Of a stretch of DNA of 32,000 nucleotides, positions 8,988-31,700 are shown piece after piece. The DNA is from an uncultured bacterium (GTDB lineage Bacteria; Patescibacteriota; Gracilibacteria; UBA1369; PNNO01), in the NCBI GenBank assembly GCA_963704705.1, contig OY969931.1, positions 1,320,001-1,352,000 on the forward strand, given 5' to 3'. How positions within the stretch are numbered: the first letter of the stretch is position 1; every line of letters starts with the position of its first letter. Made by a program: the position numbers and the translations under genes. The notes under the pieces were generated by a model. That model was not told the DNA's origin. It saw only the letters and a list, made by a program, of their open reading frames with translations, and ran no database searches.

Positions 8988-9021
8988 AGTTACTTAGTAA
9001 CCCCCTACTTACTAAGTAACT
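8988..9021. repeat. palindromic repeat element (13-bp arms, 8-nt C-rich loop)
   Basis: agttacttagtaa / ccccctac / ttactaagtaact. It has the same TTACTTAGTAA core as the elements at 27403-28004, 29484-29535 and 31161-31194. Confidence 0.85.
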
Positions 9022-15774: not shown

Positions 15775-15805
15775 CTTACCGAGTAAGGTGGTCTTACCGA
15801 GTAAG
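15775..15805. repeat. 2 direct copies (18-bp period) of the palindrome CTTACCGAGTAAG
   Basis: cttaccgagtaag-gtggt-cttaccgagtaag, directly upstream of a -35 hexamer. Confidence 0.85.
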
Positions 15806-20751: not shown

Positions 20752-20800
20752 TTTGCTTGGCAAGGCGGGCTTGCCAGGCAAAGGCCCCTTGCTTAGCAAG
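20752..20800. repeat. 3 direct copies (18-bp period) of the G/C-variant palindrome YTTGC-N3-GCAAG
   Basis: tttgcttggcaag-gcggg-cttgccaggcaaag-gccc-cttgcttagcaag, in the divergent region between pheS and the GC-rich small gene. Confidence 0.8.
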
Positions 20801-24750: not shown

Positions 24751-27396
24751 ATGGCAAAAAATTTTTGTATCAAAAAATATTATCATCACAGAGCCAAGAC
24801 TCAACTTAAACAGTGGCTTTTTATAGGCCTGTTTGCGATTTTATTTTTGGGAATGTTTGCGACTTGTGATGCGCTGGCTGCTTCGTACGTTGATGTTAGC
24901 GGAGCATCAAAAAATTTATGTACATTAGGAGCCGGCGTTACATGTGATGCCGGGACTTTAGATTTTAGTGCTGATCCTCCGATTGATGCAAAACCAAAAG
25001 CTCAATTATATTCAACAGGAAAACCGGAAGATTTTGAACTTCGCGGATGGCTATGGGATACAAACCTTGGGTGGATAAGTTTATACTGCCCTGAATCAGG
25101 TTTGAATTTAGGAGTTTCATGCAGACCAAGCAAATCGACCGTGAAATATGGAGTTAAAGTAAACTTAAAAAAAGAAATTTTATATGGATGGGCATGGGGA
25201 GATAATATTGGATGGATAAGCTTCAACTGCAAAGGCGGAAGAAATGAAACATTAGTATGCGGAACAAAAGATTATGAAAGTAATTTGGAAATTGATGTAA
25301 CAAAAAATCTTGGTAACTTTAGCGGATATGCATGGGCTGACACTGTGGGCTGGTTTAATTTAAGCGGAATCAGCGGTAAGATTTTGGATATTGTTATGAC
25401 TGAAAATGCAAGTGAACAAAACTGGGGAGTTTGGACCAAAGGTGAAATTGAAAATAATACTGCTGAAGGAAAATTTCAAGAAACTCAAAACAGAAAATAT
25501 TTCCCTGTTGCAGACGGTAACAATGGATATGATTTATTTGTGCACGTTGCAACAATTACCGGAACTCCTGTTGTTGATGTTCCGGGGCAGGTTTCAGTGA
25601 ATATAACAACAACATGGAATGATAATGTAAGTTTGGATCAAACTGTTGCTGATACCGGTGCTCCGCCCGAAGGACGATACGCGAATGTAAATAAAGTGGG
25701 TGCGGCATGGAAACCAGGTATTCCGGGATCCGAACTTGTATATACTCCTGATTCAACAACAGGCGGTATTACAAATTCATATCATGGCGTTGCAACTTCG
25801 GTTGCGCCAACCGATGGCGGAAACTGTTGGGATGGCGATGGTGATGGCTCATGTTACACAGGCGATTCAAATTATTTCTATAAAAACTTTGGAACAGATA
25901 TTCCGGATCAAAAACTGGAATATGAAGGTGCGACAGTTACAGTAACTATTATTCCAACAGGTGAAGTATGGAGCACAACAATCCAACCGCTTGGATATGC
26001 GGGTGGAAAATTAATGGAATTTTTACCTTTGGTTGATATTCCGGTTTTGAATTTTATGCTTCCCGGCAATCCGCCGATAGCAGCGAATATAATCCAGGCA
26101 ACAAGAAACAAAGAAGATGTGTTCCATATACAAGGTGCTGTAAATGCAGCTTTTGGCGGCAATTATGACCTTTCTCTCGAACTTGAACAAGATAATCCTG
26201 ATGTATACTTTCAATTTATAAAGGATCTAAATACAGTGCCGGTAGCTGTAAAGCCTATCAAACCATTGAGATTTAAAAATAGTGTTCCATTTGGCGACTA
26301 TTATTCAATTCCATTTGTTCCGGACATTAAACTTGCAGAAGAAATAACCGGAGCAATGCTAAGATCGACAGTAAGATTACCGGATTTTGGAGTTAAATAT
26401 TTTAACAACGGACTTCCAAGAACCGACGAATCAGTAATCTTAAATCAATCAGCTGAAATAGTTAGCGGAAGCGTATTTTCGCCAGGAGCAAAAGAAGTGA
26501 GCACAGGAGCAGAAGTTCCTTTGTTTGGAGACACTGCGGTTTATGAATTGCGCACCCAAATTTTAGAAGATGTAAGCGGAATTATCCGTGGCATTACGCC
26601 TGCTGGATTAGGCGGTGACTTTACAATCGAAAACGGTATGAGTGCTAGTGTCTTGGACGATTATGCTTTGCAGGGCGGACGCGCTTACTACTTTAAAGAT
26701 CACGATGTTTATCTAGATAGTACGGATCCTTTAACTTCAGTGGTTAGCGACAGGCCAATCACTTTGATTGTCGATGGCGGAGATCTTTATATAAATACAA
26801 ATATAGATACCGGAGAAGCATTCGGCTTAATCGCGTTAAAATCACGAACTGATGACAGCGAAGCAACCGGTGGCGGCCACATTTATGTTCACAGCGATGT
26901 TACAGATATGGTTGATGTTAGCATTTTCTCAGACGGCCCAATGTTCAGATATACAGATGGAGTATGTTACTACTGGGGTGCAGATGGAAGCGGAAACGAT
27001 TCTTTGCGCGCACCTAATTTTGTTAATAATGTTGGATGGTGCAGCTCAGCAGGTACATATAAAGAACCGGTTTCATCATTGCCAAACCAATTCTATTTAC
27101 GCGGAAATGTTGCATCGTTAAACTGCATCGGATGTTCAGCCGGCACAAATCCAACTCGCGGAGATGGCAAACTTTTAGGCGGACCATCAGCGGAAAATTA
27201 TTCAGACGCACGTTTATATGATTTGAATTACTTTAGTTATTACCGAGAAAATGCATTATCTCCAGGTACTTTCTCAGGCGCTCAGTCTTATTCTGTTCAG
27301 GCAAATTCGACCATTTTGCCTGCAAAGAAAAACCTTCCGGTTTACTTTGAATATTCCCCTGCCCCAAGCGACTTGCTAGGGTTTAGGGTGTTTTAG
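24751..27396 (+). CDS. large secreted hypothetical protein with N-terminal GW-x-W...GW(I/F) repeats
   Basis: It has a signal/anchor sequence (WLFIGLFAILFLGMFATCDALAA). Three repeats lie about 46 aa apart: GWLWDTNLGWISLYC, GWAWGDNIGWISFNC and GYAWADTVGWFNLSG (nt 25045-25365). The rest has no recognisable domains. Confidence 0.8.
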   Translation: MAKNFCIKKYYHHRAKTQLKQWLFIGLFAILFLGMFATCDALAASYVDVSGASKNLCTLGAGVTCDAGTLDFSADPPIDAKPKAQLYSTGKPEDFELRGWLWDTNLGWISLYCPESGLNLGVSCRPSKSTVKYGVKVNLKKEILYGWAWGDNIGWISFNCKGGRNETLVCGTKDYESNLEIDVTKNLGNFSGYAWADTVGWFNLSGISGKILDIVMTENASEQNWGVWTKGEIENNTAEGKFQETQNRKYFPVADGNNGYDLFVHVATITGTPVVDVPGQVSVNITTTWNDNVSLDQTVADTGAPPEGRYANVNKVGAAWKPGIPGSELVYTPDSTTGGITNSYHGVATSVAPTDGGNCWDGDGDGSCYTGDSNYFYKNFGTDIPDQKLEYEGATVTVTIIPTGEVWSTTIQPLGYAGGKLMEFLPLVDIPVLNFMLPGNPPIAANIIQATRNKEDVFHIQGAVNAAFGGNYDLSLELEQDNPDVYFQFIKDLNTVPVAVKPIKPLRFKNSVPFGDYYSIPFVPDIKLAEEITGAMLRSTVRLPDFGVKYFNNGLPRTDESVILNQSAEIVSGSVFSPGAKEVSTGAEVPLFGDTAVYELRTQILEDVSGIIRGITPAGLGGDFTIENGMSASVLDDYALQGGRAYYFKDHDVYLDSTDPLTSVVSDRPITLIVDGGDLYINTNIDTGEAFGLIALKSRTDDSEATGGGHIYVHSDVTDMVDVSIFSDGPMFRYTDGVCYYWGADGSGNDSLRAPNFVNNVGWCSSAGTYKEPVSSLPNQFYLRGNVASLNCIGCSAGTNPTRGDGKLLGGPSAENYSDARLYDLNYFSYYRENALSPGTFSGAQSYSVQANSTILPAKKNLPVYFEYSPAPSDLLGFRVF

Positions 27397-27402
27397 ATTT
27401 GC

Positions 27403-27472
27403 TTACTTAGTATGTGGGGGGTTACTTAGTATGTGGGGGGTTACTTAGTATGTGGGGGGTTACTTAGTATGG
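27403..27472. repeat. tandem array, 3.7 copies of the 19-bp unit ttacttagtatgtgggggg
   Basis: Exact units lie at 27403-27421, 27422-27440 and 27441-27459, with a partial unit at 27460-27472. The array starts 7 nt after the stop of the 881-aa gene. Confidence 0.95.
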
Positions 27473-27527
27473 AAATATTTTAAAAAAATTTTAGAATTTT
27501 TTAATAATTGAGGATTATTATTGGTGC

Positions 27528-27950
27528 ATGAGAATTCCACCAATTTTAAAGAACATGGCCTATCACATTTATGATCGTGGCATTGCAAAAAGAGTAATTT
27601 TTAAAATGCCTACAGATTATTTCTTTTTTATGTTAAAAATTGAAAAATATAAATTGAAATATAATATCGATATAACCAAATATTGTTTAATGCCTAACCA
27701 TTTTCATTTTCTAATAAATGCAGGGTCAAAACCAAAAAAAATCTCAACATTTATGAAGTGCATAAAAACTTCATATGCTTATTTTTTTAACAAAAAATAC
27801 AAACAATCTGGGCATGTATTCCAAGGCACCTTCCATGCCAATCCAATAGTTTCAGTTAAACAAATGCATGATACAATCGAATATATTAAAAACAACCCAG
27901 TTAAAAAAGGCTTAATTGATAAAGCTGAAGATTGGCCATACTCAGGATAA
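27528..27950 (+). CDS. IS200/IS605-family HUH (Y1) transposase, REP-associated tyrosine transposase (RAYT)-like
   Basis: The N-terminus is YHIYDRG. The HUH motif is MPNHFHFLI. The catalytic-Tyr helix and tail, YIKNNPVKKGLIDKAEDWPYSG, match my recollection of E. coli RayT (YIYINPVKHGWV....DWPFS). Confidence 0.85.
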   Translation: MRIPPILKNMAYHIYDRGIAKRVIFKMPTDYFFFMLKIEKYKLKYNIDITKYCLMPNHFHFLINAGSKPKKISTFMKCIKTSYAYFFNKKYKQSGHVFQGTFHANPIVSVKQMHDTIEYIKNNPVKKGLIDKAEDWPYSG

Positions 27951-27973
27951 TTGTTTTTCTTGATAGATCATAG

Positions 27974-28004
27974 TTACTAAGTAACCTACCCCTTACTAAG
28001 TAAC
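27974..28004. repeat. 2 direct copies (19-bp period) of TTACTAAGTAAC
   Basis: ttactaagtaac (27974-27985), ctacccc, ttactaagtaac (27993-28004). Confidence 0.9.
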
Positions 28005-28006
28005 TC

Positions 28007-28035
28007 TTGGAGATAATTTCCCTTTCTGCTATATT
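28007..28035 (+). promoter_or_regulatory. possible promoter TTGGAG-17-TATATT
   Basis: It lies immediately after the repeat pair, 27 nt upstream of the start at 28062. The -35 is weak. Confidence 0.35.
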
Positions 28036-28061
28036 AAAACTCCAAAATTTAACGCATTTAA

Positions 28062-29480
28062 TTGATGAAAGTTAATCCTAATATTTTTCGTGCATATGAT
28101 ATTAGAGGTATTGCACAAGCTACTGATAAATATCCAGATGTTGATCTTACTGAAGAAACAGCATATTTAATTGGAAAAGGAGCAGGAACATATATCCAAA
28201 AAATAACAAAGCCAAATGCCAATCTTGTTGTCGGCCGGGATAACCGTCTTCATTCACCAAAACTTCAACAAGCATTCATTAAAGGCTTGCTCGAAGTTGG
28301 CTGCGATGTTACAGACATCGACATTTCACCTTCTCCAATGCTCTATTATGCGGTTTGCAAATATGAGTTTGATGGGGGCGCGAACATTACGGCTTCACAC
28401 AATCCAAAAGAATACAATGGAATAAAATTGGTTAGTCGGAATGCACATTCTGTTTGTGGCGAAGATCTCCAGAAGGTTTTGAAAATTATTGAAGATGAAG
28501 ATTATGCAAAAGGCGCTGAAGGTGAATATAAAGAGTTGAAAATTTTTGATGTTTATAAAAATGATTTAGCTTCTAAAGTTAAAATCGAGAAACCCCTTAA
28601 GGTTGTTGTTGATGCGGGGAATGGTACTGCAGGTGCCTTTGCTCCCGATTTACTGCGAACTTTAGGATGCGAAGTTACTGAGCTTTACTGTGAACTTGAT
28701 GGCAATTTTCCGAATCACGAAGCCAATCCTGAAGAGTATGAAAACATGAAGGACCTGATTGCAAAAGTTAAAGAGGAGCATGCTGATTTGGGTTTGGGTT
28801 TTGATGGCGACGGTGATCGCGTTGGTGTTGTTGATGAAACCGGCCATCATTATTCTGCTGATTTTTTATTGATGCTGCTTGCGCGGGATTTGCTTACACG
28901 TCAGCCAGGAGCAAAAATAGTTTTTGATGTAAAAGTTACAACCTCTTTAATCGAAGATATAAAAAAGCATGGAGGAGAGCCGATAATGTGCAAAACCGGA
29001 CACTCTTTTATTGAAAGCAAAATGAAAGAAATTGGCGCGCCTTTAGCAGGAGAAGTAAGCGGGCATTTATTTTTTGCAGAAAATTATTATGGTTTTGATG
29101 ATGCATTTTTGGGCGCTGCAAAGTTGCTCGAAATTTTATCAAAAAGTTCTGTGCCCTTTTCACGATTATTTGACGATGTCCCAAAAACCTATGCGACACC
29201 TGAATTTAAAGCGCATACTCCGGACGATAAAAAATTTAAAATCGTGCGCGAACTCACTGATTATTTTACAAAAAATTACGATTGTATCACTTTAGACGGA
29301 GTTCGTGTAAATTTCACTGACCGTGCTTGGGGCGCTATTCGCTGCTCAAACACATCGCCAAATTTAACTTTAAGATTTGAAGCTGATAGCAAAGAGAAGC
29401 TTTGTGAAATTCAAAAAAATATGGTGGAACAATTGCGCAAATACCCTGAGGTAAGCCTTGATTGGTATAAAGAATGTTAA
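28062..29480 (+). CDS. phosphomannomutase/phosphoglucomutase (alpha-D-phosphohexomutase)
   Basis: FRAYDIRG is near the N-terminus. The active-site Ser loop is ITASHNPKEYNGIKL, the metal loop is GFDGDGDR, the sugar loop is GEVSGH, and the phosphate loop is RCSNTSP. Confidence 0.9.
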   Translation: MMKVNPNIFRAYDIRGIAQATDKYPDVDLTEETAYLIGKGAGTYIQKITKPNANLVVGRDNRLHSPKLQQAFIKGLLEVGCDVTDIDISPSPMLYYAVCKYEFDGGANITASHNPKEYNGIKLVSRNAHSVCGEDLQKVLKIIEDEDYAKGAEGEYKELKIFDVYKNDLASKVKIEKPLKVVVDAGNGTAGAFAPDLLRTLGCEVTELYCELDGNFPNHEANPEEYENMKDLIAKVKEEHADLGLGFDGDGDRVGVVDETGHHYSADFLLMLLARDLLTRQPGAKIVFDVKVTTSLIEDIKKHGGEPIMCKTGHSFIESKMKEIGAPLAGEVSGHLFFAENYYGFDDAFLGAAKLLEILSKSSVPFSRLFDDVPKTYATPEFKAHTPDDKKFKIVRELTDYFTKNYDCITLDGVRVNFTDRAWGAIRCSNTSPNLTLRFEADSKEKLCEIQKNMVEQLRKYPEVSLDWYKEC

Positions 29481-29483
29481 TTC

Positions 29484-29535
29484 ATATACTAAGTAAGTAC
29501 CCCCTTACTTAGTATATACCCAGCTACTAAGTAAC
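29484..29535. repeat. 34-bp palindromic element plus an extra half-site
   Basis: atatactaagtaa / gtaccccc / ttacttagtatat (29484-29517, perfect 13-bp arms), then ctactaagtaac at 29524-29535, ending 1 nt before ATG 29537. Confidence 0.9.
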
Positions 29536-29536
29536 T

Positions 29537-31156
29537 ATGCAACTAATTTACAAACACAAATACTGGCGTTTGCTTGAGATGGTTCCAGGGCTTCTTGCCT
29601 GGGGGGCGCTGCTTATACCTGTTGTTGTGGCGATTTATCACCCAATTTTAATTGCTGTTTTGGCTATTGTTTATGCGTTGCTTTGGCTTTTCAGATCAAT
29701 TCGATTGAGCATAAATTTGTATAGGGGTTATTGGAGAACTCAGGATGCAATGAAGGTGAACTGGAATTTTCTTCTCGATCTGGTTGAACATCCAGGAAAA
29801 ATCGACCAGGCGGTTAGTGAAACTGACCTTAGCAAGCCTCTTTTAAGGCCACAAAAAATCTTCAATCTTGAACTTAAAAATCTAAAAAACAGATTAACGT
29901 GGCTAAATCAAAATGACCAAGAGCTTAAGCCCTCACAGATTCACCATGCGATTTTAATAGTGACTTATAAAGAGTCGTATGAGCTGGTGAGGGAATCCGT
30001 TAAGTCATATGCGGAAAGTTTTTATCCTTATAAAAAAATGGTTTTGGTACTTGGAGGAGAGGAAGGCGACAAAGAAAATTTCGCGCAAATCTCAGAAAAA
30101 ATCGAGAAAGAATTCGGAGACAAATTCAGCGCAATAATTAAGACGGTACATCCAAAAGGCATGCCAGGAGAAATCCCTGGCAAAAGCGCAAATGCAACAT
30201 TTGCCGGTAAGGAATTAAAGCGATATCTCGACCACCATCACATCCCTTACGAGCATGTTATTTTATCAAATTTTGATGCTGACACTGTTGCGCATCCTGC
30301 TTATTTTAGTGAGCTTACTTTTAAATATTTGGTTACTAAAAATCGAACACAAAAAGCGTATCAGCCAACACACATGTTTCATAATAATATTTGGGATGTG
30401 CCTGTGATGATTCGTATGGTTGCTCTTTCTTGCACTTTCTGGCGCATGTCAGAGGCACTTGATAAACATAAATATAAAAGTTTTTCTTCGCGTTCAATGG
30501 GCTTTCAAACAGTTATTGATACAAATTATTGGGATCCTTCTATTATTCCTGAGGACTCGCGTCAGTTCTGGACAGCATTTTTGAAATACAACGGAAAGCA
30601 TACTGTTAGCTGGATTTATACGCCTGTTTATATGGATGCTGTTTTGTCAGATAGTTATCTTGAGACTTTTAAAAGTCAGTATGTGCAATTAAGGCGCTGG
30701 GCATGGGGTGTTATGGATTTCCCGTTCATGGCGATCAACTTGGCAAGACATCCAAAAATAAAACTCAGCGAAAAAATATATAGAATTTTTTACTTTTTAG
30801 AGAATGCGTTTTTCTGGGCAACCGGTCCTTTGATTATTATGTTCGCGGGTTGGCTTCCTTCTATGATGAACGCTGATTTCCGTAATTCGGTTCTTGCATA
30901 TAATTTACCAAATATAACCAGCCAGATTTTAACTGTTGCCGGAATAGGTATAATCATGTGCGGAATTATAAGTCTTGTGATCGTACCCCGTCAGGTAAAA
31001 CGCAGTCCGTGGGTACGAATTTCTCTATTTTTCCAGTGGCTTCTGGTGCCGATAACTTCAATTTTCCTTAGTGCGATTCCTGCTCTCGACGCTCAAACCC
31101 GCCTTCTTTTCGGCAAGCACCTCGAATACAAGGTTACGAAAAAAGCGAGGAAGTAA
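29537..31156 (+). CDS. integral-membrane family 2 glycosyltransferase, processive synthase type (QxxRW)
   Basis: It has N- and C-terminal TM helices. The GT-A core carries ILIVTYKES, FDAD (DxD), EDSRQFW and QLRRWAWG motifs. Confidence 0.8.
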   Translation: MQLIYKHKYWRLLEMVPGLLAWGALLIPVVVAIYHPILIAVLAIVYALLWLFRSIRLSINLYRGYWRTQDAMKVNWNFLLDLVEHPGKIDQAVSETDLSKPLLRPQKIFNLELKNLKNRLTWLNQNDQELKPSQIHHAILIVTYKESYELVRESVKSYAESFYPYKKMVLVLGGEEGDKENFAQISEKIEKEFGDKFSAIIKTVHPKGMPGEIPGKSANATFAGKELKRYLDHHHIPYEHVILSNFDADTVAHPAYFSELTFKYLVTKNRTQKAYQPTHMFHNNIWDVPVMIRMVALSCTFWRMSEALDKHKYKSFSSRSMGFQTVIDTNYWDPSIIPEDSRQFWTAFLKYNGKHTVSWIYTPVYMDAVLSDSYLETFKSQYVQLRRWAWGVMDFPFMAINLARHPKIKLSEKIYRIFYFLENAFFWATGPLIIMFAGWLPSMMNADFRNSVLAYNLPNITSQILTVAGIGIIMCGIISLVIVPRQVKRSPWVRISLFFQWLLVPITSIFLSAIPALDAQTRLLFGKHLEYKVTKKARK

Positions 31157-31160
31157 TTTT

Positions 31161-31194
31161 ATATACTAAGTAACCCCCACCTTACTTAGTATAT
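31161..31194. repeat. 34-bp palindromic element with arms identical to 29484-29517
   Basis: atatactaagtaa / cccccacc / ttacttagtatat, lying between convergent stops and overlapping the TGA of the NMNAT gene by 1 nt. Confidence 0.9.
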
Positions 31195-31700
31195 CAAGCA
31201 ATCATTTTCAGGCGCTCCACGCCTTTCCAGCTTTTTATGAGCTCGGCTACTTTTGGGTGCACATCGTCTTCCCACGACGCGTCGTCTTTGAGCATTTTTT
31301 CGCGCACGGAAGTTGCGCTTACACCCTCTACCATTTTAACGTCAGCAATTTTGTATTTACCGTAAACCTCGTAAAGCTGGCGCACAATCGGTGAGCCTGT
31401 GTAAACTTTATAAACCGGAGGAATATATTGATCAACGTGAGTCGTCCACAAAAAATAATTCATAACATTGCGAATCGGAATTATCACGTAGCGATCACGC
31501 GCGATTCTGCTTGCTTCAAGTGCGGCTTCGATCATCTGAAAACGTTCGCCGGCAGTAAAGGGATTCGCAAGTTCGTGATTTTCTTCTGCGCTCCCGATCA
31601 CAATTATCAAACGGTCTTCAACTTCCAGAGCGCGTTTAATCACGTCTAAATGTCCAAGATGAAAAGGCTGAAATCTACCTACAAAAAGCGCTTGTTTCAT
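31194..31700 (-). CDS. nicotinamide-nucleotide adenylyltransferase (archaeal/NadM-type cytidylyltransferase fold)
   Basis: FVGRFQPFHLGHLDVIKRAL is the (H/T)xGH motif. The protein is 168 aa, and its start overlaps the nadE stop (ATGA). Confidence 0.85.
   Translation of the reverse strand: MKQALFVGRFQPFHLGHLDVIKRALEVEDRLIIVIGSAEENHELANPFTAGERFQMIEAALEASRIARDRYVIIPIRNVMNYFLWTTHVDQYIPPVYKVYTGSPIVRQLYEVYGKYKIADVKMVEGVSATSVREKMLKDDASWEDDVHPKVAELIKSWKGVERLKMIA

What the first reader, a model, noticed from the sequence alone, without database searches (positions are those of the whole stretch)
27403..28004. A RAYT-like HUH transposase gene bracketed by inverted 19-bp-period repeat arrays
Seen in the sequence:
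- The 140-aa ORF has YHIYDRG, the HUH motif NHFHFLI, and YIKNNPVKKGLIDKAEDWPYSG.
- Upstream lie 3.7 exact tandem copies of ttacttagtatgtgggggg.
- Downstream lie two copies of ttactaagtaac separated by ctacccc. That is the reverse-complement orientation with the same 19-bp period.

Established knowledge: REP-associated tyrosine transposases are single-copy IS200-like Y1 genes. They are typically flanked by inverted copies of the REP sequences they are thought to mobilise.

Inference: this gene is the 'master' copy for the TTACTTAGTAA repeat family scattered through the window. RAYT/REP systems are best characterised in Proteobacteria. A clean example in this kind of AT-rich, reduced genome, with a very short 11-13-nt core arranged in phased arrays, would be worth documenting.
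Basis: partly seen in the sequence, partly recalled or inferred. Interest (0 to 1): 0.7.

Follow-up and report, generated by a model that had tools for sequence, protein, structure and literature searches.

The report
Miniature REP arrays around RAYT gene
A 140-residue REP-associated (RAYT-type) transposase-like gene in a candidate-phyla bacterium is bracketed by, and sits among, tightly phased arrays of a 13-base palindrome that it most probably binds and cuts; this is a compact version of the REP/RAYT systems known from E. coli and Pseudomonas, so it is a known kind of system in an unusual form and host.

Summary
ORF 27528-27950 encodes a 140-aa HUH/Y1 protein, preceded by 3.6 exact 19-bp repeats and followed by two inverted units.

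The protein is RAYT-class, not IS200-class:
- NCBIfam REP_Tyr_transpos scores 79.2 bits (cutoff 80); IS200 scores 21 (cutoff 55).
- The best solved relative by sequence and by fold is E. coli TnpA-REP (4er8, TM 0.81).

The gene sits at a conserved chromosomal position. In 10 of 10 independent clade members (45-84% identity) it is bracketed by TAC-NNN-GTA palindromes at a 17-19-nt period. Their details change with the lineage. Of 79 more distant relatives, none has this motif in multiple copies, though most have other inverted flank repeats.

The window holds eight such arrays, all extragenic. Dispersed doublets fold as near-perfect 13-14-bp hairpins.

- The family is not single-copy. A 43%-identical paralog lies on the same 1.37-Mb contig.
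- The repeats cluster near the gene. Twenty kb elsewhere in a sister genome has none.
- The canonical 5' GT[AG]G hairpin foot is absent.
- Genome-wide abundance and actual mobilisation remain untested.

Verdict: a real REPtron-like system, a compact variant of a known kind in a Peregrinibacteria-like CPR host. Interest is moderate.

The parts
27403..27471 (+). Upstream flank array: 3.6 exact tandem units TTACTTAGTAT + GTGGGGGG (19-nt period). All units have the same polarity (centre T) and the spacer is G-rich.
   Evidence: Orthologs L001 and L005 have 2 units at the same place. It starts 6 nt after the stop codon of the 881-aa gene. As single-stranded DNA it folds only weakly (z -2.8).
27470..27497 (+). 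Candidate promoter of the RAYT gene (TGGAAA - 16 nt - TAGAAT). The -35 element abuts the last repeat unit.
   Evidence: Consensus scan; this is not significant on its own, with 15 sites found against 12.1 expected. The TTTAGAAT..TTCTTAAT stretch is conserved in the non-coding DNA upstream of clade members down to about 50% identity, and upstream of the second paralog.
27528..27950 (+). RAYT-class HUH/Y1 gene, 140 aa. HUH is H58-F-H60 and the catalytic tyrosine is Y119 (YIKNNP). The protein ends at WPYSG, with no C-terminal tail.
   Evidence: Pfam Y1_Tnp 46.3 bits. NCBIfam REP_Tyr_transpos 79.2 bits against a cutoff of 80, IS200 21.3 against 55. 4er8 is the best hit by sequence and by fold (TM 0.81, rmsd 2.5 A). 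Catalytic residues are invariant in 14 clade members.
27974..28004 (+). Downstream flank array: two units GTTACTAAGTAAC with spacer CTACCCC. The polarity is opposite to the upstream array (centre A, C-rich spacer).
   Evidence: It is conserved in L001 and L005. It folds as a hairpin with a central A.A mismatch, dG -6.4, z -3.2.
29486..29534 (+). Three-unit array of alternating polarity (centres A, T, A) that fills the 56-nt PGM/539-aa intergenic region.
   Evidence: The first two units form a 14-bp hairpin with a 6-nt loop, dG -9.7, z -4.2. An array is present at the orthologous site in L001 and L005, and in lineage-specific form in L010.
31163..31192 (+). Inverted doublet (centres A, T; loop CCCCCACC) that fills the 37-nt region between the convergent 539-aa and NadD genes.
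   Evidence: It forms a 13-bp stem with an 8-nt loop, dG -8.1, z -7.8. It lies at one end of the segment that is inverted between lineages.
8990..9019 (+). Dispersed inverted doublet, 18.5 kb from the gene: AGTTACTTAGTAA-CCCCCTAC-TTACTAAGTAACT.
   Evidence: It forms a perfect 13-bp stem with an 8-nt loop, dG -9.3, z -4.9. It is extragenic.
6329..6357 (+). Second sub-type, 18-nt period: CTTACCGAGTAAG-GGGGT-CTTGCCGAGTAAG.
   Evidence: It resembles the units that flank the RAYT genes of L132 and L007. It is extragenic. No cognate gene was identified.
15776..15804 (+). Second sub-type, 18-nt period: CTTACCGAGTAAG-GTGGT-CTTACCGAGTAAG. Both units have the same polarity.
   Evidence: Fold dG -6.9, z -3.0. 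It is extragenic, in a divergent intergenic region.
20753..20799 (+). Third sub-type, three units of TTGC-YNR-GCAA at an 18-nt period, upstream of PheS. The change from TTAC..GTAA is symmetric (A to G and T to C).
   Evidence: L001 has the same type at the orthologous site. L005 has a TTAC-type doublet with a G6 loop there instead.

Best explanation
This is a REPtron: a chromosomally fixed, vertically inherited RAYT-class HUH/Y1 single-strand DNA nuclease-transferase gene, flanked by its cognate repeats.

The repeats are unusually compact. The unit is an 11-13-nt palindrome, (T/G)TAC-YNR-GTA(A/C), followed by a 5-8-nt spacer that is C- or G-rich in this lineage, which gives a period of 17-19 nt.

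Proposed mechanism:
1. Two neighbouring units of opposite polarity plus their spacer form a hairpin of about 31 nt in single-stranded DNA. This is a miniature REP doublet (REPIN/BIME).
2. By analogy with E. coli TnpA-REP, the protein binds this hairpin during replication, cleaves nearby through Y119 and rejoins strands.
3. This adds, deletes or homogenises units. The result is arrays that stay in phase and evolve in concert within a genome.

Shown here: the class of the protein, the intact and conserved active site, the fixed genomic position, the gene-repeat association across lineages, the extragenic restriction and the hairpin potential.

Inferred: binding, cleavage and mobilisation.

The hairpins probably also serve the host at the 3' ends of genes, as REPs do in E. 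coli.
For: Protein class:
- Pfam Y1_Tnp E = 5e-12.
- NCBIfam REP_Tyr_transpos 79.2 bits against IS200 21.3 bits. All 14 clade members hit the REP model.
- The best PDB sequence hit is E. coli TnpA-REP 4er8 (E = 2e-5), while ISDra2 TnpA scores E = 1.5.
- The AlphaFold model (pLDDT 93.5) superposes best on 4er8 (TM 0.81, rmsd 2.5 A). IS608, ISDra2 and IS200 TnpA reach TM 0.55-0.62.
- H58, H60, Y119, N123-P124 and W136 are invariant down to 44% identity.

Fixed locus:
- TopA-881aa-RAYT-PGM-539aa synteny holds in relatives at 83-84% identity.
- The gene is still next to PGM at 45-53% identity.
- There is no tnpB partner.

Gene-repeat link:
- In 10 of 10 clade lineages, in at least four different gene neighbourhoods, TAC-NNN-GTA units lie on both sides.
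- Among 79 more distant relatives the motif does not occur in multiple copies.
- Those distant relatives nevertheless share inverted 10-mers between their flanks in 30 of 44 cases, against 20 of 141 displaced controls (p = 2e-11).

Concerted evolution:
- Each genome has its own unit flanks, period and spacer, including at orthologous intergenic regions.
- In L005 a TTAC-type doublet replaces the TTGC-type units of its sister lineages.
- The window has 3.6 exact upstream units where its orthologs have 2.

Repeats:
- There are eight arrays in the window, all extragenic.
- Dispersed doublets fold as near-perfect hairpins with z from -4.2 to -7.8.

Literature:
- A REP is defined by a palindrome of about 14 bp, and a REPIN is an inverted REP doublet (10.1101/2021.07.10.451892).
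Against: - No biochemical evidence and no observed transposition event. The strain pairs available were 100% identical.
- Genome-wide abundance could not be measured, because the source contig was not retrievable.
- The repeats cluster within about 4 kb of the gene. They are absent from a 20-kb sample elsewhere in a sister genome. Numbers may therefore be tens, not the hundreds typical of classical REPs.
- Arrays occupy the same intergenic sites in lineages at 83-84% identity. That fits stable, possibly host-selected elements as well as it fits mobile ones.
[quoted passage not shown] GTAG and GTGG occur only inside spacers.
- The NCBIfam score is 0.8 bits under the curated cutoff.
- The second and third repeat sub-types have no identified cognate enzyme. 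My prediction that the second paralog is flanked by the CGAG sub-type failed.
- The extra exact upstream units could arise by replication slippage alone.
Confidence: 0.72

Rival explanations
1. The arrays are primarily host cis-elements. They could be RNA 3'-end hairpins (termination or mRNA protection), or operator sites for a dimeric double-strand DNA-binding protein that recognises TTAC-N3-GTAA. On this reading the RAYT gene merely sits among them, or is regulated by them, and it no longer moves them.
For: - Arrays start 5-6 nt after the stop codons of the 881-aa, PGM and 539-aa genes and fill whole short intergenic regions.
- Their positions are conserved between lineages.
- The invariant part is two 3-4-bp half-sites separated by 3 variable bases, like a dimer operator.
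- The last upstream unit abuts a conserved promoter-like element.
- The repeats cluster locally rather than being dispersed.
- E. coli REPs are known to have such host roles (PMC2817692, PMC3479197).
Against: - The gene is bracketed in 10 of 10 lineages even where its neighbours differ completely, as in L007, L009 and L206.
- The repeat type follows the protein clade.
- Arrays within a genome evolve in concert.
- The catalytic residues are invariant, so the enzyme is still doing chemistry.
- No array matches an intrinsic-terminator pattern: the stems are AT-rich and there is no T-run. There is no Rfam match either.
- This reading is not exclusive of the main one.
Confidence: 0.17
2. The gene and its two flank arrays form an active, autonomous IS200/IS605-type insertion sequence. 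The arrays would be its left and right subterminal hairpins, and the other arrays would be solo ends or MITE-like derivatives.
For: - Y1_Tnp fold with HUH and Tyr.
- Inverted repeats bracket the gene.
- The units begin with TTAC, which is the IS608 target and left cleavage site. In IS608 that site lies 19 nt from the hairpin (PMC3201880).
- 9 of 14 clade members give weak IS200 model hits.
Against: - The gene holds the same chromosomal position across relatives at 83-84% identity, and stays next to PGM at 45-53%.
- No identical or near-identical second copy was seen; the paralog is only 43% identical.
- There is no tnpB.
- The IS200 model scores 21 bits against a cutoff of 55, and IS200-type structures fit much worse than TnpA-REP.
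- The 19-nt period is lineage-specific, so the IS608 parallel is weak.
Confidence: 0.04
3. The arrays grow, shrink and homogenise only by replication slippage and gene conversion between short direct or inverted repeats. The RAYT-like protein has a different substrate or role.
For: - The extra exact 19-nt units in the window's upstream array (compared) are what slippage produces.
- An inversion of the RAYT-PGM-539aa segment has array-bearing ends, which fits recombination between inverted repeats.
Against: - Slippage does not explain why every clade member, in several unrelated neighbourhoods, is bracketed by the same kind of palindrome.
- It does not explain why a doublet of the genome's own type appears at a site that holds another sub-type in sister lineages.
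- It does not explain why distant relatives each carry their own inverted flank repeats.
Confidence: 0.07

Closest known systems
E. coli TnpA-REP (YafM, PDB 4er8) with REP/BIME sequences: the 'REPtron' (Ton-Hoang 2012, PMC3333891; Messing 2012, PMC3479197)
   Same: - It is the best sequence and fold match, with HUH and a Tyr on the last long helix.
- The gene is flanked by inverted REPs.
- REPs are extragenic hairpins, often in regularly spaced, alternating arrays (BIMEs).
- A stem mismatch is present in the gene-flanking copies, and such a mismatch is required for binding in E. coli.
   Different: - Only 21% identical.
- 140 aa against 165 aa. The protein ends at the equivalent of E. coli residue ~136, so it lacks the C-terminal tail that auto-inhibits the E. 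coli enzyme (PMC3479197).
- There is no 5' GTAG foot at the hairpin base.
- The unit is 11-13 nt and the period 17-19 nt, against REPs of about 35 nt with longer linkers.
- The stems are AT-rich.
- The host is a candidate-phyla bacterium, not a gammaproteobacterium.
REPIN-RAYT systems of Pseudomonas and enterobacteria (Bertels & Rainey; PMC3116915, PMC5581495, 10.1101/2021.07.10.451892)
   Same: - The architecture matches: a short palindrome (about 14 bp in REPINs, 13 nt here) occurs as inverted doublets that fold into a longer hairpin.
- The transposase-like gene is vertically inherited at a fixed locus.
- One genome can hold several RAYT paralogs.
   Different: - The doublet is about 31 nt, not about 100 bp.
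- Copy number appears modest and local rather than hundreds per genome.
[quoted passage not shown]
- The gene-flanking copies are direct tandem arrays, not inverted doublets.
TnpA-Y1 subclass 2.4 / Bertels Group 4 (Quentin 2018, PMC6006769)
   Same: - Motifs NH[IFV]H and YIxNNP match NHFH and YIKNNP.
- This subclass is one of the few without a domain after the core.
- It is found scattered in various phyla.
- It is associated with 'double-foot' REPs (GT[AG]G ... C[TC]AC). The half-units GTA(A/G) and (T/C)TAC on either side of each spacer resemble these.
   Different: - Placement rests on motifs only; no tree with reference sequences was built.
- The protein has FQ instead of WQ.
- Length is 140 aa against a median of 194 aa, and no REP insertions were seen inside the gene.
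- The clade consensus Y-motif is YIAxNP.
- The feet flank a 5-8-nt spacer, not a hairpin body.
IS608 / ISDra2 TnpA (IS200/IS605 family)
   Same: - Same fold and chemistry.
- It recognises subterminal DNA hairpins in single-stranded DNA.
- IS608 cleaves and inserts 3' of TTAC, located 19 nt from the left hairpin (PMC3201880). TTAC is the first tetranucleotide of the unit here.
   Different: - Much weaker match (TM about 0.6; NCBIfam 21 bits).
- The gene here is not mobile and has no tnpB.
- The 19-nt period is not conserved in the clade.
- IS200-type enzymes are obligate dimers with trans active sites, whereas the closest structure here is the monomeric TnpA-REP.

Membership tests
RAYT (REP-associated tyrosine transposase, TnpA-REP) | [quoted passage not shown] | tested here: met
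   Pfam PF01797 46.3 bits against a cutoff of 23. H58/H60 and Y119 are invariant in 14 members. The AlphaFold model has pLDDT 93.5 and matches Y1 transposases.
RAYT (REP-associated tyrosine transposase, TnpA-REP) | Closer to TnpA-REP than to IS200/IS605 TnpA | tested here: met
   NCBIfam REP model 79.2 bits against IS200 21.3 bits, and 14 of 14 members hit the REP model. PDB sequence search gives 4er8 E = 2e-5 against 2xm3 E = 1.5. Foldseek TM is 0.81 against 0.55-0.62.
RAYT (REP-associated tyrosine transposase, TnpA-REP) | Passes the curated NCBIfam equivalog cutoff (NF047646, 80 bits) | tested here: inconclusive
   79.2 bits, which is 0.8 below the cutoff. The model is built mainly from proteobacterial sequences; that statement is inference.
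RAYT (REP-associated tyrosine transposase, TnpA-REP) | [quoted passage not shown] | tested here: met
   The upstream array (centre T, G-rich spacer) and the downstream array (centre A, C-rich spacer) are reverse complements in type. Units lie on both sides in 10 of 10 clade lineages.
RAYT (REP-associated tyrosine transposase, TnpA-REP) | Flanking repeat is over-represented elsewhere in the genome and is extragenic | tested here: inconclusive
   Met within the 32-kb window: 17 matches against 0.77 expected, and eight arrays that are all extragenic. However, the repeats cluster near the gene and are absent from 20 kb elsewhere in a sister genome. The whole genome was not obtainable.
RAYT (REP-associated tyrosine transposase, TnpA-REP) | Fixed chromosomal locus, vertical inheritance, no recent duplicates, no tnpB | tested here: met
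   Synteny holds in relatives at 83-84% identity, and partly at 45-53%. The only other family member on the source contig is 43% identical. An identical duplicate on the same contig cannot be excluded by that search.
RAYT (REP-associated tyrosine transposase, TnpA-REP) | Single gene of the family per genome | tested here: not met
   P0203 lies on the same 1,374,545-bp contig, and two paralogs also occur on the contigs of L001 and L009. Several diverged RAYTs per genome are known in Pseudomonas and Stenotrophomonas (PMC2817692, PMC6006769), so this does not exclude membership.
RAYT (REP-associated tyrosine transposase, TnpA-REP) | Binds and cleaves its REP as single-stranded DNA | not testable with these tools
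   Needs purified protein and oligonucleotides.
Canonical REP (Quentin 2018; Di Nocera 2013) | 5' GT[AG]G tetranucleotide at the foot of an imperfect hairpin of 20-40 nt | tested here: not met
   The hairpins of about 31 nt have no GT[AG]G at either foot. GTAG and GTGG occur only in the loop or spacer on the G-rich strand. The half-units GTA(A/G) and (T/C)TAC resemble feet, but that is a resemblance only.
REPIN / BIME | Short palindromes in inverted (alternating) orientation at regular spacing, folding into a longer hairpin | tested here: met
   Dispersed TTACTWAGTAA sites alternate in polarity (TA, AT, ATA) and fold as near-perfect 13-14-bp hairpins with z from -4.2 to -7.8. The gene-flanking arrays and the CGAG sub-type arrays are direct, not alternating.
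REPIN / BIME | Hundreds of copies per genome forming a sequence population | not testable with these tools
   The source genome is not retrievable. The available samples suggest a much lower, locally concentrated number.
IS200/IS605 insertion sequence | Multi-copy mobile element; TnpA passes the IS200 model; often has tnpB | tested here: not met
   The IS200 model scores 21.3 bits against a cutoff of 55. The locus is fixed, there is no tnpB, and no near-identical copies were found.

The most novel reading that the evidence does not exclude
The clade is a minimal, tail-less RAYT whose substrate is reduced to the bare essentials. Each 17-19-nt module carries both 'feet' (YTAC and GTAR) around a 3-nt centre, plus a short spacer. 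Recognition element, guide and cleavage or target site therefore coincide. New modules are added in phase next to old ones, which would explain the tandem arrays at the gene, the alternating arrays nearby and the local rather than genome-wide spread. In these very small genomes the same arrays may have been co-opted as the main punctuation at gene 3' ends, and may serve as substrates for local inversions such as the RAYT-PGM-539aa flip.
Probability: 0.15. Interest if true: 0.7.

Novelty: new variant of a known kind. Interest (0 to 1): 0.45.

Why it matters
REP/RAYT systems have been characterised almost entirely in Proteobacteria, and the main surveys predate or omit candidate-phyla genomes (PMC2817692, PMC5581495, PMC6006769). 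In the paper library I searched, nothing links them with Patescibacteria.

What this case offers:
- A conserved clade of the smallest RAYTs (140 aa, no inhibitory tail).
- The smallest, most regular cognate repeats known to me, in genomes of about 1.4 Mb where the arrays occupy a third of the intergenic regions locally.
- A very simple substrate (about 31 nt, or 19 nt per module) and a small protein with a confident structural model. That makes a convenient system for working out how a monomeric RAYT recognises, cuts and copies its repeat, which is still unresolved for E. coli TnpA-REP.
- A test of whether REP-type elements are domesticated as gene punctuation in reduced genomes.

It does not reveal a new kind of system.

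Tried and rejected
1. **Genome-wide count.** The identical protein (P0001) is on a 1.37-Mb NCBI/ENA contig, but neither it nor a neighbouring gene could retrieve that contig. It returned 113 mostly single chance matches in unrelated phyla, none with a RAYT nearby.

2. **Metagenome scan.** These were useful only as a negative control.

3. **Recent gain or loss of units.** All contig pairs carrying the same protein were 100% identical, so they were uninformative.

4. **Cognate of the CGAG sub-type.** I predicted that the second paralog would be flanked by the window's CTTACCGAGTAAG sub-type. This failed. P0186 has a different upstream palindrome (GTCGT-TCAGG-ACGAC), which is not dispersed.

5. 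**IS608 parallel.** TTAC as target, 19 nt from the hairpin, is verified in PMC3201880. I down-weighted it because the period is 17-18 nt in most of the clade.

6. **Inter-unit covariation at the central triplet.** It is perfect for dispersed TTACTWAGTAA doublets in this lineage but inconsistent in L010 and L132. It therefore does not decide between a hairpin formed by two units and a mini-hairpin within each unit.

7. **Known RNA families, tRNAs and intrinsic terminators.** None was found at the arrays.

8. **CRISPR-like array.** Rejected: the period is far too short and there are no unique spacers.
Full report
**1. Observation**

The sequence is as described.
- ORF 27528..27950 (+) encodes a 140-aa protein with YHIYDRG, the HUH motif NHFHF and YIKNNPVKKGLIDKAEDWPYSG.
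- Upstream, 27403-27471 is a 19-nt tandem repeat of 3.6 copies at 100% identity, unit TTACTTAGTATGTGGGGGG.
- Downstream, 27974-28004 is TTACTAAGTAAC-CTACCCC-TTACTAAGTAAC. Its central base and spacer composition are reversed relative to the upstream array, so the two flanks are inverted.
- The 11-mer with at most 1 mismatch gives 17 matches, against 0.77 expected.

**2. The protein**

It passes Pfam Y1_Tnp (46.3 bits). Against NCBIfam it scores 79.2 bits on the REP-associated tyrosine transposase equivalog, just under the cutoff of 80. It scores only 21.3 bits on the IS200 model, whose cutoff is 55. All 14 members of its clade hit the REP model.

The only significant solved relative by sequence is E. 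coli TnpA-REP, 4er8 (E = 2e-5); ISDra2 TnpA scores E = 1.5. A confident AlphaFold model (pLDDT 93.5) superposes on 4er8 at TM 0.81 and rmsd 2.5 A. IS608, ISDra2 and IS200 TnpA reach TM 0.55-0.62.

H58, H60, Y119, N123, P124 and W136 are invariant down to 44% identity. The alignment to 4er8 ends at E. coli residue 135 of 165, one residue before this protein's own end. The protein therefore lacks the C-terminal tail that auto-inhibits the E. coli enzyme (PMC3479197). Its motifs NHFH and YIKNNP, and the lack of a post-core domain, fit subclass 2.4 / Group 4 of Quentin et al. (PMC6006769). That placement rests on motifs only. JGI's pipeline already names several relatives 'REP element-mobilizing transposase RayT'.

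**3. Host**

PheS from the window is 100% identical to a protein on the same 1,374,545-bp contig. Its nearest named relatives are Patescibacteria group bacteria (86% and 77%), Candidatus Peregrinibacteria (71-72%) and Candidatus Gracilibacteria (72%). The ORFs read through in the standard code. I infer that the host is a Peregrinibacteria-like member of the candidate phyla radiation.

**4. Fixed locus**

In relatives with 84% and 83% identical proteins the gene lies in the same place: TopA, 881-aa protein, RAYT, phosphoglucomutase, 539-aa protein, then NadD, NadE and SmpB on the other strand. At 45-53% identity it is still next to PGM. There is no tnpB. This is the behaviour of a domesticated RAYT, not of an insertion sequence.

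**5. The gene-repeat link across lineages**

The orthologs carry the same repeat on both sides in the same inverted arrangement, with two upstream units instead of 3.6. Seven further lineages at 45-53% identity are also bracketed by units of the form (T/G)TAC-YNR-GTA(A/C) at a 17-18-nt period. Three of them (L007, L009, L206) lie in unrelated neighbourhoods. Each lineage has its own flanking bases, central triplets and spacers. That makes 10 of 10.

As a negative control, none of 79 more distant relatives (30-43% identity, 150-370 aa) from metagenomes has the motif in multiple copies; six have a single hit each. Those relatives do carry other flank repeats of their own. In 30 of 44 the two flanks share an inverted 10-mer, against 20 of 141 displaced control positions (Fisher p = 2e-11). 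The whole family therefore behaves as RAYTs with cognate REPs, and this palindrome type is specific to the 140-aa clade.

**6. The repeats in the window**

A motif-agnostic scan found 7 clusters against 1.3 expected; five are family arrays and two are A/T-rich chance hits. Together with the motif searches, this gives eight arrays in three sub-types.

| Sub-type | Period | Sites |
|---|---|---|
| TTACT-W-AGTAA | 19 nt | 8990, 27403, 27974, 29486, 31163 |
| CTTACCGAGTAAG | 18 nt | 6329, 15776 |
| TTGC-YNR-GCAA | 18 nt | 20753 |

All eight are extragenic in a window that is 87.5% coding (P about 6e-8). They occupy 8 of 20 intergenic regions and fill the two shortest almost completely. Three of them start 5-6 nt after a stop codon.

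Dispersed TTACTWAGTAA sites have units of alternating polarity. As single-stranded DNA they fold into near-perfect hairpins with 13-14-bp stems and 6-8-nt C-rich loops (dG -8 to -10 kcal/mol, z -4.2 to -7.8). The gene-flanking arrays have units of one polarity and fold weakly, with a central mismatch. The '11-13-nt core' is thus best read as one arm of a hairpin of about 31 nt whose arm is itself a palindrome. That is the REPIN/BIME architecture in miniature: a ~14-bp palindrome in inverted doublets (10.1101/2021.07.10.451892), or regularly spaced REPs in alternating orientation (PMC2817692).

The canonical 5' GT[AG]G foot (PMC6006769) is absent; GTAG and GTGG occur only inside spacers. No array matches Rfam or an intrinsic-terminator pattern.

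**7. Signs of turnover**

- Within a genome all arrays share genome-specific details, even at intergenic regions that are orthologous between lineages. The PGM/539-aa region, for example, holds three 19-nt units in the window and three 18-nt ATTAC-YNR-GTAAT units in L010.
- At the region upstream of PheS, the window and L001 have TTGC-type units, whereas L005 has a TTAC-type doublet with that genome's G6 loop.
- The window's upstream array has two extra exact units.
- These points suggest continuing homogenisation or insertion, but slippage and gene conversion could contribute. No event could be caught between strains.

**8. Corrections and limits**

- The family is not single-copy. A profile search found P0203 (142 aa, 43% identical) on the same 1.37-Mb contig. 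Second paralogs also lie on the contigs of L001 and L009, and these paralogs form their own sub-clade.
- I predicted that this second paralog would be flanked by the window's CGAG sub-type. It is not. In the sister genome it has a different upstream palindrome that is not dispersed, and it has no downstream intergenic region.
- That 20-kb locus, about 65 kb from the first paralog, contains no TTACTWAGTAA unit. In the window, four of the five such sites lie within 3.7 kb of the gene. The repeats are therefore concentrated locally.
- Their genome-wide number is unknown.

**9. Mechanism**

The mechanism I consider most likely, at about 0.7, is as follows. The protein is an active monomeric RAYT. 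It recognises the hairpin formed by adjacent units in single-stranded DNA and cleaves through Y119. By strand transfer it adds, removes or converts units, mainly close to its own gene. The hairpins also serve the host at gene ends.

- Shown: class, active-site conservation, fixed locus, clade-specific gene-repeat association, extragenic restriction, hairpin potential.
- Inferred: binding, cleavage, mobilisation and any host function.

The main rival, at about 0.17 and not exclusive, is that the arrays are now chiefly host cis-elements. An autonomous IS (0.04) and slippage-only dynamics (0.07) are unlikely.

**10. Novelty**

This is a known kind of system, RAYT plus REP/BIME. It occurs here in a compact variant: a minimal tail-less enzyme, 17-19-nt modules, no GTAG foot and direct tandem arrays at the gene. 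The host group is one for which the library I searched holds no description. Interest is moderate.

Noticed in passing
Source contig outside the window (protein P0203); L209 10001-10438 (P0186); contig of L009 (P0177): A second RAYT paralog of the same clade (142-145 aa, 43-49% identical) lies on the same contig in the source genome and in two sister genomes. These paralogs form their own sub-clade, marked by GHVFE, KYILNNPV and a KYYxWPYxW ending.
   Followed up: partly
L209 9898-9931: The second paralog is preceded by two copies of a different palindrome (GTCGT-TCAGG-ACGAC and GTTGT-TCAGG-AAGAC, 18-19 nt apart). It also has the same conserved TTTAGAA...TTCTTAAT promoter-like motif. Its 3' end overlaps a convergent M16 peptidase gene. 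This palindrome is not found elsewhere in the available DNA.
   Followed up: yes
window 24751-31700, compared with L010 9388-16128 and L011 5323-14982: The three-gene segment RAYT-PGM-539aa is inverted between lineages. The window has TopA> 881aa> [segment] <NadD, and L010/L011/L207 have NadD> [segment] <881aa <TopA. In the window both ends of the segment carry repeat arrays (27403 and 31163), which suggests recombination between inverted repeats.
   Followed up: partly
window 6329-6357 and 15776-15804: Two arrays of a CTTACCGAGTAAG sub-type (18-nt period, G-rich spacers) resemble the units that flank the RAYT genes of L132 and L007. They have no identified cognate gene in this genome.
   Followed up: partly
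window 20753-20799; L001 2224-2270; L005 2853-2930: A TTGC-YNR-GCAA sub-type differs from TTAC..GTAA by a symmetric A-to-G and T-to-C change. It lies upstream of PheS in the window and in L001. At the orthologous site L005 has a TTAC-type doublet plus degenerate units, so the array has been replaced or converted.
   Followed up: partly
window 27473-27510, and the equivalent upstream regions of L001, L005, L009, L010, L132 and L209: A non-coding motif around TTTAGAATTTCTTAAT lies between the upstream array and the start codon. It is conserved across proteins only about 50% identical, and upstream of the second paralog. It is a likely promoter (-10 TAGAAT) or operator.
   Followed up: partly
window 27528-27950, compared with L011: The RAYT diverges much faster than most of its neighbours. 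It is 53% identical, against 79% for PGM, 80% for the 539-aa protein, 78% for TopA and 71% for NadD. Only the 881-aa protein is lower, at 45%. The catalytic residues nevertheless stay invariant.
   Followed up: partly
window 24751-27396: The 881-aa protein immediately upstream has no Pfam hit on record for its orthologs. It contains several GW(I/F)(S/N)(L/F)-like motifs near its N-terminus. It is conserved in position but diverges quickly.
   Followed up: no
L132 1576-1588: In this relative the stop codon of the RAYT gene lies inside the first downstream repeat unit (..CCGAG TAA GT..), so gene and repeat overlap.
   Followed up: no
L205 position 1 (= window 27442): An independent short-read assembly of the same strain (ERR11571143) breaks inside the upstream 19-nt tandem array. 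The unit number there depends on the assembly and should be checked with long reads.
   Followed up: no
L035 102-205 and L073 7596-7699: In the genome-collection scan, a Verrucomicrobia contig and a Methanosarcinales contig each show three doublet matches spaced 38 nt apart, at contig ends. They may be a different kind of repeat array that contains TACTWAGTA.
   Followed up: no
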